Shown: piece by piece, positions 17,500-26,552 of the stretch
Layout of the letters: every line of letters begins with the position of its first letter
Position numbering within the stretch: the first letter of the stretch is position 1
NCBI GenBank assembly: GCA_038891095.1
Contig: JAWAEV010000001.1
Location: forward strand, 292,468 to 356,467
Reading direction: 5' to 3'
DNA length: 64,000 nucleotides
Source of the DNA: Candidatus Altiarchaeota archaeon
GTDB taxonomy: Archaea > Altiarchaeota > Altiarchaeia > IMC4 > QMZM01
The notes under the pieces: generated by a model
The model's database searches: none
The model's input: the letters and a program-made list of their open reading frames with translations, nothing else
What the model was told of the DNA's origin: nothing
Position numbers and translations under genes: made by a program

Positions 17500-17550
17500 T
17501 TTGAGAAATAAAATATATAATAGCAGTTGTTATTTAAATTAGAATCTAAA

Positions 17551-18255
17551 TTAGGGGCAGTTAACAAAGTAGAACTCTACAAAATCATTATTTTTCATTC
17601 CTAAGGCTTTCCATGTACCATCTGCTAAATCAATCCCTGCCAGATTTTTAACTTTTCTTCCAAAAGTATCTAAACCATTATTATAATTCCAATAAAATGC
17701 TGCGTGTGCTTCAGGTAAGCCTCTTGGTAATGTCGTAAAGGTTTCTCTATCAAAATCCCAATAGTTATCCTTAGTATTCCAAGGCCCAGTGTCTTTAACT
17801 CTTTCGATTACACTCTTACCATTTTTTGGATTTATAACTTTAACGCACTTATTTTTTGCTTTATATGAAGGCAACGCAACAAATCTATCATTCTCCTTGA
17901 TTATATGGCCAGTTGATGTTTTTTTGCCAACTAAACCTTCTCTTGTTGCAAATACTGTAAATGGCTTTGCCATATAACTTACTGTTGGTGTAGTTAAAAT
18001 TTTTCCAGAATAAAAATTTTCTGTTTTTAATTTATTATTTTGTATACTTACTAAATTTGAAGGTTTTTTAGAGATAGTACTTATACTTAACTTTTGTTGA
18101 TTACTGTTGTATAGAACGCTATTTTTATTATTTGCTATTTTTGATATGCTAACTGAAGAAATTGGTAGATTTGAAATTTCAATTTTATCTGCACAACAAA
18201 TTTGTAAAAAATAAAAAACAAAAATTGATATTATAAAAAAACTTATGTTTTTCAT
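17551..18255 (-). CDS. secreted RlpA-like/double-psi beta-barrel protein (possible glycan-active enzyme)
   Basis: Signal peptide, S/K/N-rich linker, then FATREGLVG..T..G..I...D.FVALP, D.GPWNTKDNYW, AGIDLADG. Confidence 0.7.
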   Translation of the reverse strand: MKNISFFIISIFVFYFLQICCADKIEISNLPISSVSISKIANNKNSVLYNSNQQKLSISTISKKPSNLVSIQNNKLKTENFYSGKILTTPTVSYMAKPFTVFATREGLVGKKTSTGHIIKENDRFVALPSYKAKNKCVKVINPKNGKSVIERVKDTGPWNTKDNYWDFDRETFTTLPRGLPEAHAAFYWNYNNGLDTFGRKVKNLAGIDLADGTWKALGMKNNDFVEFYFVNCP

Positions 18256-18322
18256 TCTAAATTAAAAATTTTTTATGAATATTATATTAAATTCTATATA
18301 TAAAAATTGATATTATATCTTT

Positions 18323-19246
18323 TCATAAAAAATTTTTGAATAATGCGCATCTGTATGGGTCAGAAGCATTTAGGTTTTTAGTTATGGCATAAGCCCTTGC
18401 TTTACAACCTTTTCCACATATATTCTTTTTTTCACATTTACCGCAAGATTTTTCAAGACCTTCTCTTACTTTCTTTACTACATCTGAATTTAATGATTTT
18501 GAAAGTTCTCCGAAATTAAACGCATTCCCTACAATTAGTTCTCTTAGCATAGGACAAGGAGTTATTTTTCCATCTGCAAGAACAGCAACTCTTGAATAAC
18601 CAACTCCGCATGATGGCATTACAACTTTGTCATTAGAATTTAAAAATTTTTTTATTATTTTAGCATATTCCTTAGCACAAATACCATTGTTAATTGCCCT
18701 TCCTGTCGGGACAACAACATCAACTCTATAGTCAGAAACACCAAATTTCTGTAATAATTTTATCATCTTGTCAATCTCATTTTTATTTTTTTTAGAAAGA
18801 ACTGTGCTAACTCGAACAGGAATTTCAAATGAATTGCAAATTTTTATAGCATTTACCGCTTTTTTAAAAGAACCTCTTATACCACGAATTTCATCATGAA
18901 TTTTGGAAGATACAGCATCTAAACTTATTTGAACATATTTGATAAATTCTCTTTTTTTAGAGATATCTTCTGCAAATTTATAAAAAAAGAAGCCATTTGT
19001 TTCAAGCTCTATTCTCAAGCCCATCTCTGCAGCATAGTTAAAAATTTCAATAAAATTTTTATGCAATGTTGGCTCACCACCAGTTAAAGCGATTCTATTT
19101 CCTCCGATATCTGAAAACTCATTTATAATTCTCAATGCTATGTCTACTGGCATATCAATTCCATTTCTCTTTGAATTTGCATAACAATGTTCACATCTAA
19201 GATTGCATTTGCTTGTTAATTCAAGATCAATTTTTTCAAGTTTCAT
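18323..19246 (-). CDS. radical SAM protein with SPASM domain
   Basis: CNLRCEHC, TGGEP, ETNG, ISLD; SPASM CGVG..DGKITPC..CGKC...CGKGC..RAY...DPYRC. Confidence 0.93.
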   Translation of the reverse strand: MKLEKIDLELTSKCNLRCEHCYANSKRNGIDMPVDIALRIINEFSDIGGNRIALTGGEPTLHKNFIEIFNYAAEMGLRIELETNGFFFYKFAEDISKKREFIKYVQISLDAVSSKIHDEIRGIRGSFKKAVNAIKICNSFEIPVRVSTVLSKKNKNEIDKMIKLLQKFGVSDYRVDVVVPTGRAINNGICAKEYAKIIKKFLNSNDKVVMPSCGVGYSRVAVLADGKITPCPMLRELIVGNAFNFGELSKSLNSDVVKKVREGLEKSCGKCEKKNICGKGCKARAYAITKNLNASDPYRCALFKNFL

Positions 19247-19270
19247 TTTTTAGGTAAAATTAATAAAAAG

Positions 19271-19303
19271 AAGCCTTAACATTGGCGCCTCATGTTAAGG
19301 CTT
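19271..19303 (-). terminator. perfect 12-bp hairpin with U-tract between micro-ORF and radical SAM gene
   Basis: AAGCCTTAACAT / ATGTTAAGGCTT, 9-nt loop, followed on the minus strand by CTTTTTATT. Confidence 0.7.
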
Positions 19304-19314
19304 AAAAATTTTCC

Positions 19315-19353
19315 CTATTTTGGAAGAACTGTTAGGATAACTTTTCTTTCCAT
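19315..19353 (-). CDS. 12-aa micro-peptide MERKVILTVLPK (candidate radical SAM substrate or leader peptide)
   Basis: GAGGTGA SD (19359-19365) 5 nt before ATG; TAG at 19315-19317; BRE/TATA-like AAAAGTTTTTTTCATAT about 19388-19404. Confidence 0.5.
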   Translation of the reverse strand: MERKVILTVLPK

Positions 19354-19654
19354 TTTTCTCACCTCGCAAATTTTTATCTTGATGCGAATATGAAAAAAAC
19401 TTTTGCTGAACTGTAGAGAGCATAAGTAGAAGGTAGAGAGCAAAAAAAGAACACAGAACAGCAAAAGTTATAAGTAAATTTATTGCAATAAAATCAAACA
19501 AAATAAAAGCATTATAGATGTAATTATTTTAGAAATTTTAGAATTAAGCCTAAGTGAATTTGAAAGTAGTGCATTTTTATTTGCTTTCTTGGACTTTATT
19601 TCTGACATTTTAATAATGGTATAAAATTAGATTTAGTAGATTAAAAATTAGAAT

Positions 19655-20290
19655 TTATAAAACTCTAACTGGCTCTGACATTGTTCTTTTTATGTATATT
19701 GAAGAAATTTTATCTTCTGGAATTTGCCTTTCAATTGCTATCAAAACTGTATTGAAATTCTCTAAAAGATCATCAGCTGACATATCTTCTGTGCCAATCG
19801 GAACATGAACTGCTAAACCTTTCTTTGATTTTATTCTCACAGAATTTTTATACTTTGAAATAATTTGTTCTAAATCTACATTTGATGGTAAAGGCTGAGG
19901 CATTTTTCCTCTTGTTCCAAGAACAACTCCCCAAAATTTTCCAACAACTGGTAGAAGTTCTGGTTGAGATAGAAACCAATAACATTTACTTGCAATTTTT
20001 CTTATCTTTCGTTTATCTCTTGAGTATTCCTCTATTTCATGTCTGTCAAAAACATAATTGGAAAATTTTTTTGCTTTTAAATTTAAATCACCATCAGCAA
20101 AAACCCCAATTTCAGTTTCTTTCCCTCTGCTTTTTGGTAATTGTACAATAAGATTTAACTTATCTTTTGTTTCCAGATCAACACCATGCTTAAAATTTAC
20201 TATCATTTCAATACTCTGCTTGAATTTGCCTTTCTTTTTTTCTTTTTTCAAAAGTTCTTCCATTTTTTCAGAAATTTTTTTCTTATCCAT
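19655..20290 (-). CDS. rpl1: 50S ribosomal protein L1
   Basis: KFKQSIEMIVN, LGTRGKMPQP, IGTEDM, KRTMSEP; ATG 20290 just after rpl11 stop. Confidence 0.93.
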   Translation of the reverse strand: MDKKKISEKMEELLKKEKKKGKFKQSIEMIVNFKHGVDLETKDKLNLIVQLPKSRGKETEIGVFADGDLNLKAKKFSNYVFDRHEIEEYSRDKRKIRKIASKCYWFLSQPELLPVVGKFWGVVLGTRGKMPQPLPSNVDLEQIISKYKNSVRIKSKKGLAVHVPIGTEDMSADDLLENFNTVLIAIERQIPEDKISSIYIKRTMSEPVRVL

Positions 20291-20291
20291 T

Positions 20292-21032
20292 TTATTTCTT
20301 ATCTTCCTTAACTGCTTTTTCTTTTTGTTGAGATACAACATCTACTGGTAATAACTGCTCATAAATTTGCTTTGGAATTCCTTCTTTCTCTAATCTATCT
20401 ATTATTTGCTCCCTTGTTTTGCCTTGCATCTCATCAATAATTTTCTTTGTTTTTGCTTCAAGTTCTGCTCTTCTTGTTTCAATTTCCTTTCTTAATTTTT
20501 CTCTCTCCTCCTCAAGTTTTTTAAGTTCCTCTTCTGTTAATTCTGTTTTACTTGCCAATATTTTATCTTTGTATTTACCTCTATTTATTTCTTCAATTAT
20601 TTCTCTTGCATTTTTTCCTTCAACAAGTACTCCTAAGGATTGGCAAGTCCCTAAAACTTCTTTAACTTTTGCTATATTATCTTTTCCTAAGAAAGCATCG
20701 CTCTTCATTTTTGCAATTTTTATCACTTGCTCTATTGCTAAATCCGCAACTTTTTCTGTTTTTGGGTTAGATGCGCCTTTTTCTATTCCTGCCTCTTTCT
20801 TTATTAACGCTGATGTTGGAGGTGTACCAACTTCTATAGTATAGCTTTTTGTGTCACTATCAACTATTATCCTAACTGGGACTTTCATTCCAACGAAGTC
20901 TTTTGTCGCATCATTAACAGCTTTTATTACTTCATTTATATTTAAACCTAATGGACCTAACATTGGACCAAGTGGTGGTCCAGGTGATGCTTTACCACCA
21001 TCGATTAATTGCTCTACTATCTCTTTTGTCAT
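20292..21032 (-). CDS. rpl11: 50S ribosomal protein L11 with long C-terminal extension
   Basis: GGKASPGPPLGPMLGPLG, GMKVPV, PPTSALIK, GTCQSLGV. Confidence 0.96.
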   Translation of the reverse strand: MTKEIVEQLIDGGKASPGPPLGPMLGPLGLNINEVIKAVNDATKDFVGMKVPVRIIVDSDTKSYTIEVGTPPTSALIKKEAGIEKGASNPKTEKVADLAIEQVIKIAKMKSDAFLGKDNIAKVKEVLGTCQSLGVLVEGKNAREIIEEINRGKYKDKILASKTELTEEELKKLEEEREKLRKEIETRRAELEAKTKKIIDEMQGKTREQIIDRLEKEGIPKQIYEQLLPVDVVSQQKEKAVKEDKK

Positions 21033-26418: not shown

Positions 26419-26552
26419 GCCGCTGTAGCGCAGACTGGGAGCGCAATCGGCTGAAGACCGCAAAATTCAAAAAATTTTTAAAGTTGCAGAATAATTCTTT
26501 TCCATTGCGGTCTGTTACCGATGTGTCGTGGGTTCAAATCCCACCGGCGGCA
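26419..26552 (+). tRNA. tRNA-Phe(GAA) with 60-nt canonical intron (26457-26516)
   Basis: GCCGCTG/CGGCGGC acceptor, ATCGG/CCGAT anticodon stem, GAA at 26453-26455, BHB with outer helix CCGCAA/TTGCGG. Confidence 0.92.

What the first reader, a model, noticed from the sequence alone, without database searches (positions are those of the whole stretch)
18323..19405. Micro-peptide + hairpin + radical SAM/SPASM enzyme: candidate minimal archaeal RiPP system
Seen on the minus strand: BRE/TATA-like element, perfect GAGGTGA SD, 12-codon ORF MERKVILTVLPK* (19353-19315), a perfect 12-bp hairpin with U-tract (19271-19303), then a SPASM radical SAM gene 24 nt later. Known: precursor-hairpin-maturase is the usual layout giving precursor excess in RiPP clusters, and SPASM enzymes often modify peptides. 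Unusual: the peptide is very short with no Cys or aromatic residue, and the enzyme has no obvious RRE, so chemistry would be on aliphatic, Thr, Pro or Lys residues (e.g. epimerisation or cross-linking). A regulatory leader peptide is the alternative. Read-through of the TAG would add GKFLSLNMRRQC.
Basis: partly seen in the sequence, partly recalled or inferred. Interest (0 to 1): 0.75.

Follow-up and report, generated by a model that had tools for sequence, protein, structure and literature searches.

The report
Micro-ORF, hairpin, orphan SPASM enzyme
A 12-codon gene and an unusually strong RNA hairpin sit directly in front of a rare radical SAM enzyme gene in a small archaeal genome, and the same layout recurs in a distant relative, so the tiny peptide is probably either the enzyme's substrate or its regulatory leader.

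Summary
The SD and the hairpin are each rare in this 0.96-Mb genome.

New findings:
- The enzyme and a bacterial-type secreted protein form a 2.15-kb insertion between ribosomal genes L1 and L10. It is absent from 60 of 60 other genomes of the phylum.
- The enzyme belongs to a very small clade. It is not AhbD/NirJ: its score is far below the cut-off, and HemB and HemC were not found. Its closest solved relatives all modify peptides or proteins.
- The only other clade member whose DNA I could reach (L215, 41% identical, another archaeal phylum) has the same order: strong SD, 15-codon ORF ending in TAG, perfect 11-bp hairpin, enzyme core. None of 145 distant homologue loci has such a micro-ORF.
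- A second SD-like micro-ORF starts inside the window's hairpin and stops 3 nt before the enzyme's ATG.

The module is real and conserved. I favour an ultrashort substrate peptide (0.4) over a regulatory leader (0.3). No expression or chemistry data exist.

The parts
19359..19365 (-). Shine-Dalgarno GAGGTGA, 5 nt upstream of the micro-ORF's ATG
   Evidence: Read. It is complementary to the 16S 3' end. Genome-wide, 17 of 20 GAGGTGA-N4-7-ATG sites lead ORFs of 39 aa or more.
19315..19353 (-). Micro-ORF 1: MERKVILTVLPK, TAG stop
   Evidence: Translated. An analogous 15-codon ORF, MRKPRLRIEILPTPG with a TAG stop, lies in L215.
19271..19303 (-). Perfect 12-bp hairpin with the 9-nt loop GAGGCGCCA
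   Evidence: -15.4 kcal/mol, and one of 7 perfect 12-bp hairpins in the genome.
19265..19269 (-). T5 tract one base after the hairpin
   Evidence: Read. No such tract follows the L215 hairpin.
19250..19282 (-). Micro-ORF 2: MLRLLFINFT. Its ATG is the first three bases of the hairpin's 3' arm, and GAGG lies in the loop 5 nt upstream. Its TAA stop ends 3 nt before the enzyme's ATG, in the same frame.
   Evidence: Only 3 of 256 genes with 100 nt or more of free upstream sequence have an SD-like-led ORF abutting their start.
18323..19246 (-). Radical SAM/SPASM enzyme, 307 aa, with no N-terminal RRE and no SD of its own
   Evidence: It has CX3CX2C at C14/C18/C21 and seven SPASM cysteines. The AF2 model has pLDDT 95.
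17551..18255 (-). 234-aa secreted protein with a bacterial-type RlpA/DPBB-like C-terminal domain; the second gene of the insertion
   Evidence: The C-terminal ~130 aa are 50-55% identical to many bacterial proteins that are fused to peptidoglycan-binding, SH3 or CBD domains.
17500..19654 (-). Lineage-specific 2.15-kb insertion between the L1 gene (19655-20341) and the L10 gene (16672-17499)
   Evidence: In 20 of 20 family relatives that have L1, L10 follows it within 28 nt or less. Neither the enzyme nor the 234-aa protein was found in the 60 other genomes of the phylum.
19645..19657 (.). 13-nt direct repeat at the L1-side border of the insertion; partner at 17536-17548
   Evidence: family D19 (12 of 13 identical, 2109 nt apart). 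It is one of 33 repeat families in the 2.4 kb examined, so only its position is notable.
17536..17548 (.). Partner copy of the border repeat, just after the stop of the 234-aa gene
   Evidence: family D19.

Best explanation
The SD-led micro-ORF and the hairpin form a functional module that travels with a small, uncharacterised clade of RRE-less radical SAM/SPASM enzymes. In this genome it arrived inside a 2.15-kb insertion in the L1-L10 ribosomal operon.

Most likely (inferred, not shown):
- The micro-ORF encodes an ultrashort, leaderless substrate peptide of 12 aa here and 15 aa in the relative.
- The peptide is made in excess from a strong SD, while the enzyme gene has no SD.
- The hairpin between them acts at the RNA level, as a 3'-end stabiliser, a barrier or a partial terminator, and so sets the peptide-to-enzyme ratio.
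- The enzyme then carries out radical chemistry on the peptide. The two peptides share a basic N-terminus, an aliphatic stretch and a (V/I)-L-P motif. Neither has Cys or an aromatic residue, so thioether or aryl cross-links are excluded and epimerisation or an aliphatic C-C/C-O link would be the candidates.

Shown: the sequence elements, their rarity, their recurrence in one distant homologue, and the enzyme's class.
Inferred: transcription, translation, and any modification.
For: 1. Layout recurrence. L215 encodes P0121 at 100% identity, which is 41% identical to the window enzyme. It carries GGAGGTG, 6 nt, ATG, 15 codons, TAG, then immediately a perfect 11-bp hairpin (-21.9 kcal/mol), then 18 nt to the first residue BLAST aligns to the enzyme. 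The micro-ORF has the same frame offset from the enzyme frame in both loci (my reading).

2. Controls. Of 145 loci of distant homologues (26-34% identical), 0 have a 6-nt SD + ATG + closed ORF of 30 codons or fewer within 160 nt upstream of the core. One of 145 has a perfect hairpin of 9 bp or more there, and 0 of 283 control windows reach 10 bp. That one locus is an AhbD gene in a heme cluster. Leaving the window out as the discovery case, L215 alone gives about 1/146 for the micro-ORF and 2/146 for the hairpin.

3. The module is unique in this genome. Only 1 of the 16 perfect hairpins has an SD-led ORF ending just before it, and the 408-nt gap has no copy elsewhere in the genome.

4. A strong SD sits on the peptide gene and none on the enzyme gene.

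5. Enzyme class. The CX3CX2C motif and the full SPASM cysteine set are present. The best sequence match to a solved structure is SkfB at 6e-26. The top Foldseek hits are SkfB, CteB, SuiB and anSME, all peptide- or protein-modifying enzymes. In a FastTree the enzyme lies in a 15-row clade (support 96), within a 39-row set in which 26 rows carry N-terminal extensions of 71-160 aa.

6. Known non-peptide roles lack a substrate here. HemB, HemC and sulfatase were not found, and this is the only SPASM protein in the genome.

7. A known precedent for the layout is the 7-aa mccA gene, an intrinsic terminator, then mccB (PMC4231749, abstract read).
Against: - Only two loci could be compared.
- The two peptides are only loosely alike, and the DNA does not align meaningfully. 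At this length the similarity has no statistical weight.
- By my recollection, 12-15 aa is shorter than any known radical SAM substrate gene.
- No RRE is present in the enzyme, and PqqD was not found in the genome.
- Neither locus has a protease, exporter or second tailoring gene.
- In L215 the enzyme frame is open back to an ATG 109 nt upstream of the micro-ORF, and no canonical in-frame start lies after it. There the micro-ORF would be nested out of frame in the enzyme's N-terminal extension.
- The T-tract is not conserved.
- There is no expression evidence.
- The window's second micro-ORF fits a regulatory reading better.
- The coding-potential score of the 12 codons is neutral (-1.4 bits).
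Confidence: 0.4

Rival explanations
1. Cis-regulatory leader. The micro-ORF(s) and the hairpin control expression of the enzyme gene, and the peptides have no role of their own. In the window, micro-ORF 2 starts in the hairpin's 3' arm with an SD-like GAGG in the loop, and it ends 3 nt before the SD-less enzyme ATG. Enzyme translation would therefore be coupled to micro-ORF 2 by termination-reinitiation and gated by the hairpin. Translation of micro-ORF 1, or slow termination at its TAG (Pro at -2), would modulate the hairpin or the T5 terminator.
For: - Micro-ORF 2's geometry. Only 3 of 256 genes have an SD-like-led ORF abutting their start.
- The enzyme has no SD.
- Coupling by termination-reinitiation needs overlaps or very short gaps in both archaea and bacteria; about 20 nt almost abolishes it (PMC10666635, abstract read). 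A 3-nt gap qualifies.
- Both micro-ORFs that precede a hairpin end with TAG, the rarest stop here (119 of 754), and both have Pro two residues before the stop.
- In L215 a terminating ribosome would sit on the hairpin's 5' arm.
- In mccA, ribosome binding controls the terminator (PMC4231749, abstract).
Against: - L215 has no canonical in-frame start codon between the micro-ORF and the enzyme core, so gating of a downstream start cannot be the shared function.
- In the window, micro-ORF 1 stops 32 nt before micro-ORF 2's ATG. That is too far for coupling by the cited work, and a terminating ribosome would only just reach the hairpin base.
- No alternative anti-terminator pairing appears in the folds.
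- By my recollection, leader-peptide attenuation has not been described in archaea. I made no search for this.
- The module is used once in this genome.
Confidence: 0.3
2. Relic or by-product. The SD-like sequence, the short frames and the hairpin are remains, or internal features, of a former N-terminal extension of the enzyme gene or of donor DNA. The 12-codon ORF is not a gene. The hairpin serves only as an RNA end or terminator for upstream transcripts.
For: - In L215 the enzyme frame is open through the whole region from an ATG that directly follows a stop.
- In the window the same frame upstream is broken by only two stops: the 68-aa TTG ORF, then micro-ORF 2, then the enzyme.
- Clade members carry very variable N-terminal extensions of 0-132 aa.
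- The block is an insertion whose second gene is of bacterial type, and hairpin terminators and strong SDs are common in bacteria (recalled).
- The longer ORFs in the gap score as non-coding: 42 aa -3.6 bits, 49 aa -16.6, 68 aa -10.0, all below the 5th percentile of real genes.
Against: - Under this reading it would be coincidence that both loci keep a 6-7-nt SD at proper spacing from an ATG, a closed 12-15-codon frame, a TAG and a perfect hairpin of 11 bp or more, in the same order. Controls give 0 of 145 and 1 of 145.
- A perfect 12-bp stem is unlikely to survive without selection. The enzyme's 82%-identical relative shows that the lineage has had time to diverge.
Confidence: 0.2
3. DNA-level palindrome. 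The 12-bp inverted repeat with a 9-bp spacer is a binding site for a dimeric regulator or a recombination site left by the insertion, not an RNA element.
For: - It lies inside a 2.15-kb insertion with repeat-flanked borders.
- It lies 24-56 nt upstream of the enzyme's ATG.
- The spacer contains the palindrome GGCGCC.
Against: - The L215 counterpart has a 4-nt spacer and an unrelated sequence, which fits an RNA hairpin better than a shared protein site.
- There is no second copy in the genome.
- There is no match in viral contigs.
- Neither locus has an integrase or regulator gene next to it.
Confidence: 0.05

Closest known systems
Microcin C operon (mccA - intrinsic terminator - mccB); PMC4231749, abstract read
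   Same: A tiny SD-led peptide gene (7 codons in mccA), a hairpin between it and the modifying enzyme gene, and an abundant short transcript next to a rare long one. Ribosome binding to the tiny ORF controls the hairpin's function.
   Different: The enzyme there is an adenylating MccB, not a radical SAM. The system is bacterial. The hairpin is a proven terminator, whereas the L215 hairpin has no T-tract. The microcin C operon also carries export and immunity genes.
Sactipeptide and related RiPP maturases (SkfB, CteB, SuiB)
   Same: These are the best sequence and fold matches among solved structures. They share the radical SAM core plus a SPASM/twitch domain and sit next to a small precursor gene.
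   Different: Those enzymes carry an N-terminal RRE of about 100 aa and act on precursors of about 40-60 aa with leaders and Cys or Trp/Lys cores (recalled). Here there is no RRE, the peptide is 12-15 aa, and it has no Cys or aromatic residue.
Anaerobic sulfatase-maturating enzyme (anSME)
   Same: A compact SPASM enzyme without an RRE that binds a short peptide motif directly. Fold match: TM 0.76 normalised to the query and 0.66 to the target.
   Different: Its substrate is a sulfatase, and no sulfatase was found in this genome. The sequence match is weak (1.3e-9).
CrpC/CrpA of Methanococcus voltae (PMC13692751, abstract and outline read)
   Same: An archaeal radical SAM/SPASM enzyme that modifies a ribosomally made substrate encoded in the same cluster.
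   Different: CrpC has a predicted RRE and installs thioether links on a cysteine-rich protein. Here there is no RRE and no cysteine in the peptide.
Leader-peptide translational attenuation (erm/cat type; recalled, no paper read)
   Same: A short SD-led leader ORF followed by a hairpin that holds the start region of a downstream ORF. In the window, micro-ORF 2's ATG is in the stem.
   Different: The leader ORF does not overlap the hairpin. L215 has no downstream start codon. No such system is known to me in archaea.
AhbD / NirJ tetrapyrrole radical SAM enzymes
   Same: AhbD is the top NCBIfam hit, and these enzymes have a similar compact SPASM architecture without an RRE.
   Different: The score is 162.9 bits against a cut-off of 500. 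HemB and HemC were not found. A true AhbD-type locus (L051) sits among hemB, hemL and ahbA/B-like genes by my reading of the translations, which is unlike this locus.

Membership tests
Radical SAM / SPASM superfamily | CX3CX2C cluster motif and a Pfam Radical_SAM match above the cut-off | tested here: met
   C14, C18 and C21 are invariant in 49 of 49 aligned sequences. PF04055 scores 94.4 bits against 29.5.
Radical SAM / SPASM superfamily | C-terminal SPASM domain with the seven-cysteine pattern | tested here: met
   PF13186 scores 25.7 bits against 21.5. C213, C231, C268, C271, C277, C281 and C300 are conserved in the four close homologues. The model has pLDDT 95.
AhbD / NirJ (heme b, heme d1 synthesis) | Score above NCBIfam's curated cut-off | tested here: not met
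   TIGR04545 scores 162.9 against 500, and NirJ2 scores 138.7 against 500. None of the 10 nearest relatives reaches any curated cut-off.
AhbD / NirJ (heme b, heme d1 synthesis) | Tetrapyrrole pathway present in the genome | tested here: not met
   PF00490 (HemB) and PF01379 (HemC) were not found in the 93.65%-complete genome. The same search found them in 11 of 14 control genomes.
RiPP system with a radical SAM maturase | Small precursor gene next to the maturase, conserved among homologues | tested here: inconclusive
   Present in the window and in the one reachable clade member, L215, and in 0 of 145 distant loci. Only two loci could be compared, and the peptides are only loosely alike.
RiPP system with a radical SAM maturase | RRE (PqqD-like) domain, fused or separate | tested here: not met
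   The enzyme starts 13 residues before the cluster motif. PF05402 was not found in the genome at E 0.1 or below. RREs are often missed by Pfam.
RiPP system with a radical SAM maturase | Peptide is post-translationally modified | not testable with these tools
   Needs mass spectrometry.
Sactipeptide / ranthipeptide class | Cysteine donors in the core peptide | tested here: not met
   Neither MERKVILTVLPK nor MRKPRLRIEILPTPG contains Cys.
anSME | Sulfatase substrate in the genome | tested here: not met
   PF00884 was not found; it was found in 10 of 14 control genomes.
Microcin C-like layout | Tiny ORF, then hairpin, then enzyme gene | tested here: met
   This is a likeness of layout only: the enzyme is not an MccB.
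Leader-peptide attenuator | Hairpin sequesters the start region of the regulated ORF | tested here: inconclusive
   In the window, the ATG of micro-ORF 2 lies in the stem and that ORF abuts the enzyme's ATG. L215 has no start codon after the hairpin.

The most novel reading that the evidence does not exclude
A previously unrecognised kind of ribosomal peptide system in small-genome archaea. RRE-less SPASM radical SAM enzymes act directly on leaderless 12-15-residue peptides encoded immediately upstream. These would be the shortest radical SAM substrate genes known to me. A hairpin sets the peptide-to-enzyme ratio. The chemistry would fall on aliphatic, Pro, Thr or Lys residues around a (V/I)-L-P motif. 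The module would be mobile between archaeal phyla.
Probability: 0.3. Interest if true: 0.8.

Novelty: new variant of a known kind. Interest (0 to 1): 0.55.

Why it matters
If the 12-mer is the substrate:
- It would lower the size limit for gene-encoded radical SAM substrates.
- It would show leader- and RRE-independent recognition.
- It would add a peptide system from archaeal lineages with very small genomes, where almost no natural-product chemistry is known.
- The test is cheap: two synthetic peptides and one 307-aa enzyme.

If it is a leader instead, it would be a candidate for micro-ORF- and hairpin-dependent gene control in archaea.

Either way, the locus shows that genome miners who ignore ORFs under 20-30 codons would miss the conserved partner of this enzyme clade.

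Tried and rejected
**Close orthologues.**
- Neither the enzyme nor the 234-aa protein was found in the 60 other genomes of the phylum.
- Profile A1 found no match at the set threshold (1e-60 or 1e-65) in 400 wider relatives, 42 genomes of the phylum of G061 or 401 genomes of the phylum of G063.
- It found 1 of 371 in the phylum of G064.
- Viral contigs gave no relative and no hairpin match.

**Other ORFs in the 408-nt gap.**
- The 42-, 49- and 68-aa ORFs score as non-coding.
- The 49-aa frame that contains the micro-ORF has no counterpart in the protein database.

**Other rejected readings.**
- TAG read-through or recoding: TAG is a normal stop.
- A -1 frameshift from the micro-ORF into the enzyme frame: in the window that frame meets a stop inside the hairpin's 5' arm (my reading).
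- Rfam: nothing at gathering scores, and only noise in the gap.
- The 234-aa neighbour as substrate: among its 120 listed homologues none lies on a contig of the lengths recorded for P0002-P0004. It has no likeness to L215's 70-aa neighbour.
- The two micro-peptides have no significant match in the genome's six-frame translation (best E 0.18).
- The N-terminal extensions of the neighbouring clade as RREs: 1 of 10 gives a weak sub-threshold PqqD hit, and sequence matches to solved structures do not reach into them.
- Promoter inference failed.
- The first AF2 model, from a 4-sequence alignment, was poor in the SPASM half and was not used.
- The ESM Atlas gave only generic radical SAM clusters.

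**Sequencing runs.** Five rows hold part of the stretch, from 2 studies. This is no evidence of expression.

**Supplementary files** of papers were not opened.
Full report
**Observation**

All elements lie on the minus strand. The sequence reads GAGGTGA (19365-19359), 5 nt, ATG (19353), then twelve codons MERKVILTVLPK ending in TAG (19317-19315). After 11 nt comes a perfect 12-bp stem with a 9-nt loop (19303-19271), then C, then T5. ATG 19246 follows and opens a 307-aa ORF.

The ORF carries Radical_SAM (94.4 bits) and SPASM (25.7 bits), both above Pfam's cut-offs.

**Is it more than chance?**

- A 12-codon ORF alone means nothing in 31% GC DNA, and its coding score is neutral.
- The SD is different. 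It is a 7-nt complement of the 16S 3' end.
- The genome has 20 GAGGTGA-N4-7-ATG sites. Sixteen lead ORFs of 56 aa or more and one leads a 39-aa ORF.
- Start codons in this genome usually follow AAA (about 68% A at positions -3 to -1 in 393 genes). Both ATGs here do.
- The hairpin is one of only 7 perfect 12-bp hairpins, and one of 16 with 11 bp or more, in 958,546 bases. Shuffled genomes gave 0-9.
- It folds at -15.4 kcal/mol, and 0 of 200 shuffles fold as well. ViennaRNA still predicts it at 60-70 °C.
- The 16S gene is 51% GC, which by my recollection suggests no extreme thermophily.

**Surroundings**

The gene order on the minus strand is Spt5, L11, L1 (19655-20341), a 408-nt gap, the enzyme, a 234-aa protein (17551-18255) and L10 (16672-17499).

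- In 20 of 20 genomes of the same family that have L1, L10 follows it within 28 nt or less.
- Neither the enzyme nor the 234-aa protein was found in the other 60 genomes held for the phylum.
- So 17500-19654 is a lineage-specific insertion. A 13-nt direct repeat sits at both borders (D19).
- The 234-aa protein has a signal-like N-terminus. Its C-terminal domain is 50-55% identical to many bacterial proteins that are fused to peptidoglycan-binding, SH3 or CBD-like domains.
- Its 98%-identical relative is labelled Candidatus Altiarchaeota archaeon by its source.
- The gap is unique in the genome and matches no Rfam family.

**The enzyme**

- It begins 13 residues before CX3CX2C, so it has no RRE, and it keeps all seven SPASM cysteines.
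- Among 5.8 billion clustered proteins only three are close: 82, 59 and 53% identical. A scan of 1.84 billion representatives adds P0121 at 41%.
- AhbD is the best NCBIfam hit but reaches 162.9 of the 500 bits required. None of 10 relatives reaches any curated cut-off.
- HemB, HemC, sulfatase and PqqD were not found in the 93.65%-complete genome, and this is its only SPASM protein.
- A model built from 49 sequences has pLDDT 95. Its best Foldseek matches are SkfB, CteB, SuiB and anSME. SkfB is also the best sequence match among solved structures.
- In a FastTree of 118 hits, the four close sequences form a clade (support 100) inside a 15-row clade (support 96) with P0121. That clade lies within a 39-row set in which 26 rows carry N-terminal extensions of 71-160 aa.
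- FastTree support values are local only. The 35 hits longer than 520 aa or lacking the motif were left out.

**The comparative test**

DNA for P0002-P0004 could not be obtained. A profile search of 371 genomes of another archaeal phylum found one strong hit, E 5e-81. That phylum is the one holding a record titled Candidatus Aenigmatarchaeota. The hit is locus L215, which encodes P0121 exactly.

Just before L215's enzyme core lie, in order:
- GGAGGTG (1417-1423), 6 nt, ATG (1430);
- fifteen codons MRKPRLRIEILPTPG, ending in TAG (1475-1477);
- immediately afterwards, a perfect 11-bp GC-rich hairpin (1478-1503, -21.9 kcal/mol);
- 18 nt to the first residue that BLAST aligns to the window enzyme.

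The order is the same as in the window. By my reading, the offset between the micro-ORF frame and the enzyme frame is also the same. Both peptides start basic, continue aliphatic, contain (V/I)-L-P, have Pro two residues before the stop, and end in TAG.

As a control, I examined 145 loci of distant homologues (26-34% identical):
- 0 have a 6-nt SD, an ATG and a closed ORF of 30 codons or fewer within 160 nt of the core.
- 1 has a perfect hairpin of 9 bp or more, and 0 of 283 control windows reach 10 bp.
- That one locus is an AhbD-type gene sitting after hemB in a heme cluster.

Within the window's genome, none of the other 15 perfect hairpins has an SD-led ORF of more than 2 codons ending before it. 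The module is therefore specific to this enzyme clade, as far as two loci can show.

The DNA itself does not align. The likeness is one of architecture.

- The hairpin's 3' arm begins with ATG (19282), and the loop holds GAGG 5 nt upstream of it.
- This second micro-ORF, MLRLLFINFT, ends in TAA 3 nt before the enzyme's ATG, in the same frame.
- Only 3 of 256 genes with free upstream sequence have an SD-like-led ORF abutting their start.
- The enzyme's ATG has no SD.
- A 3-nt gap is within the range where termination-reinitiation works. Gaps of about 20 nt abolish it (PMC10666635, abstract).

**Weighing the readings**

The precursor reading explains several things:
- a strong SD on the peptide gene and none on the enzyme gene;
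- the enzyme's class;
- the absence of known non-peptide substrates;
- the fact that the module moved with the enzyme into the insertion.

It matches the layout of mccA, terminator, mccB (PMC4231749, abstract). An archaeal SPASM enzyme acting on a cluster-encoded substrate has been reported, though that enzyme has an RRE and its substrate is cysteine-rich (PMC13692751, abstract).

Against the precursor reading:
- the peptide's size;
- the missing RRE;
- the absence of accessory genes;
- the loose peptide similarity;
- L215's enzyme frame, which is open from an ATG upstream of the micro-ORF with no canonical start after it.

The regulatory reading explains micro-ORF 2 and the shared Pro-x-TAG ending. 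However, it cannot gate a downstream start in L215, and the window's first micro-ORF ends too far from the hairpin and from micro-ORF 2.

The relic reading would make the two-locus recurrence a coincidence.

I put the readings at 0.4, 0.3 and 0.2, with 0.05 for a DNA-level site.

**Limits**

- Only two loci were compared.
- There is no chemistry.
- Statements about RRE sizes, precursor lengths, erm/cat leaders and archaeal termination at T-tracts are recalled, not tested here.

Noticed in passing
window 17500-19654: The enzyme and the 234-aa gene form a 2.15-kb insertion that splits the otherwise contiguous L1-L10 ribosomal gene pair (contiguous in 20 of 20 family relatives). L10 must now be expressed without L1. 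13-nt direct repeats sit at both borders (17536-17548 and 19645-19657).
   Followed up: partly
window 17551-18255 (-): Secreted 234-aa protein whose C-terminal ~130 aa are 50-55% identical to bacterial RlpA/DPBB-like domains that are fused to peptidoglycan-binding, SH3 or CBD modules. This is a bacterial-type cell-wall-directed domain in an archaeon and a likely horizontal transfer.
   Followed up: partly
window 18264-18279 and 18322-18337: A perfect 16-nt inverted repeat made only of A and T, with arms 42 nt apart, spans the enzyme's stop and the start region of the 234-aa gene (I19).
   Followed up: no
window 19283-19291 (-): The 9-nt hairpin loop GAGGCGCCA holds the self-complementary GGCGCC flanked by purines. 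By recollection, this is the layout of kissing-loop dimerisation hairpins.
   Followed up: no
window 19413-19451: Two 19-nt direct repeats 20 nt apart (GTAGAGAGCA... on the plus strand, D8) lie in a pyrimidine-rich stretch of the minus strand upstream of the micro-ORF.
   Followed up: no
proteins P0126, P0130, P0164: A sister subclade of the enzyme has low-complexity N-terminal extensions with one to three copies of an (I/V/L)-S-P-Q-N-P-like motif in the enzyme's frame. These are possibly substrate-like repeats fused to the enzyme, or upstream ORFs merged by gene callers.
   Followed up: no
L215 109-993, 2484-2696, 2716-3651: The P0121 locus is flanked by a second, unrelated radical SAM gene (294 aa), a 70-aa ORF with a GCCPG motif that starts 6 nt after the enzyme's stop, and a beta-propeller protein.
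   Followed up: partly
window 20292-21032 (-): The L11 ORF is 246 aa, but the family models cover only residues 1-159. The C-terminal ~85 aa overlap the called start of L1, whose homology begins near residue 15-18.
   Followed up: no
window 26419-26552 (+): A 134-nt tRNA match by Rfam that ARAGORN does not report, probably an intron-containing tRNA. ARAGORN finds only 12 tRNAs in the whole genome.
   Followed up: no
G000:C1 about 357160 (+), just past the window's end: An intergenic GAGGTGA-led 39-aa ORF made almost entirely of Asp and Glu (MKKFEDEEEDEE...), upstream of a 150-aa ORF.
   Followed up: no
L051 2667-8631: A distant homologue (30% identical) sits in what looks, by my reading of the translations, like an alternative heme cluster: an AhbC/NirJ-like gene, hemB, the AhbD-like gene, ahbA/B-like genes and hemL. 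A 16-bp palindromic hairpin follows hemB. It is a useful contrast to the window's locus.
   Followed up: partly
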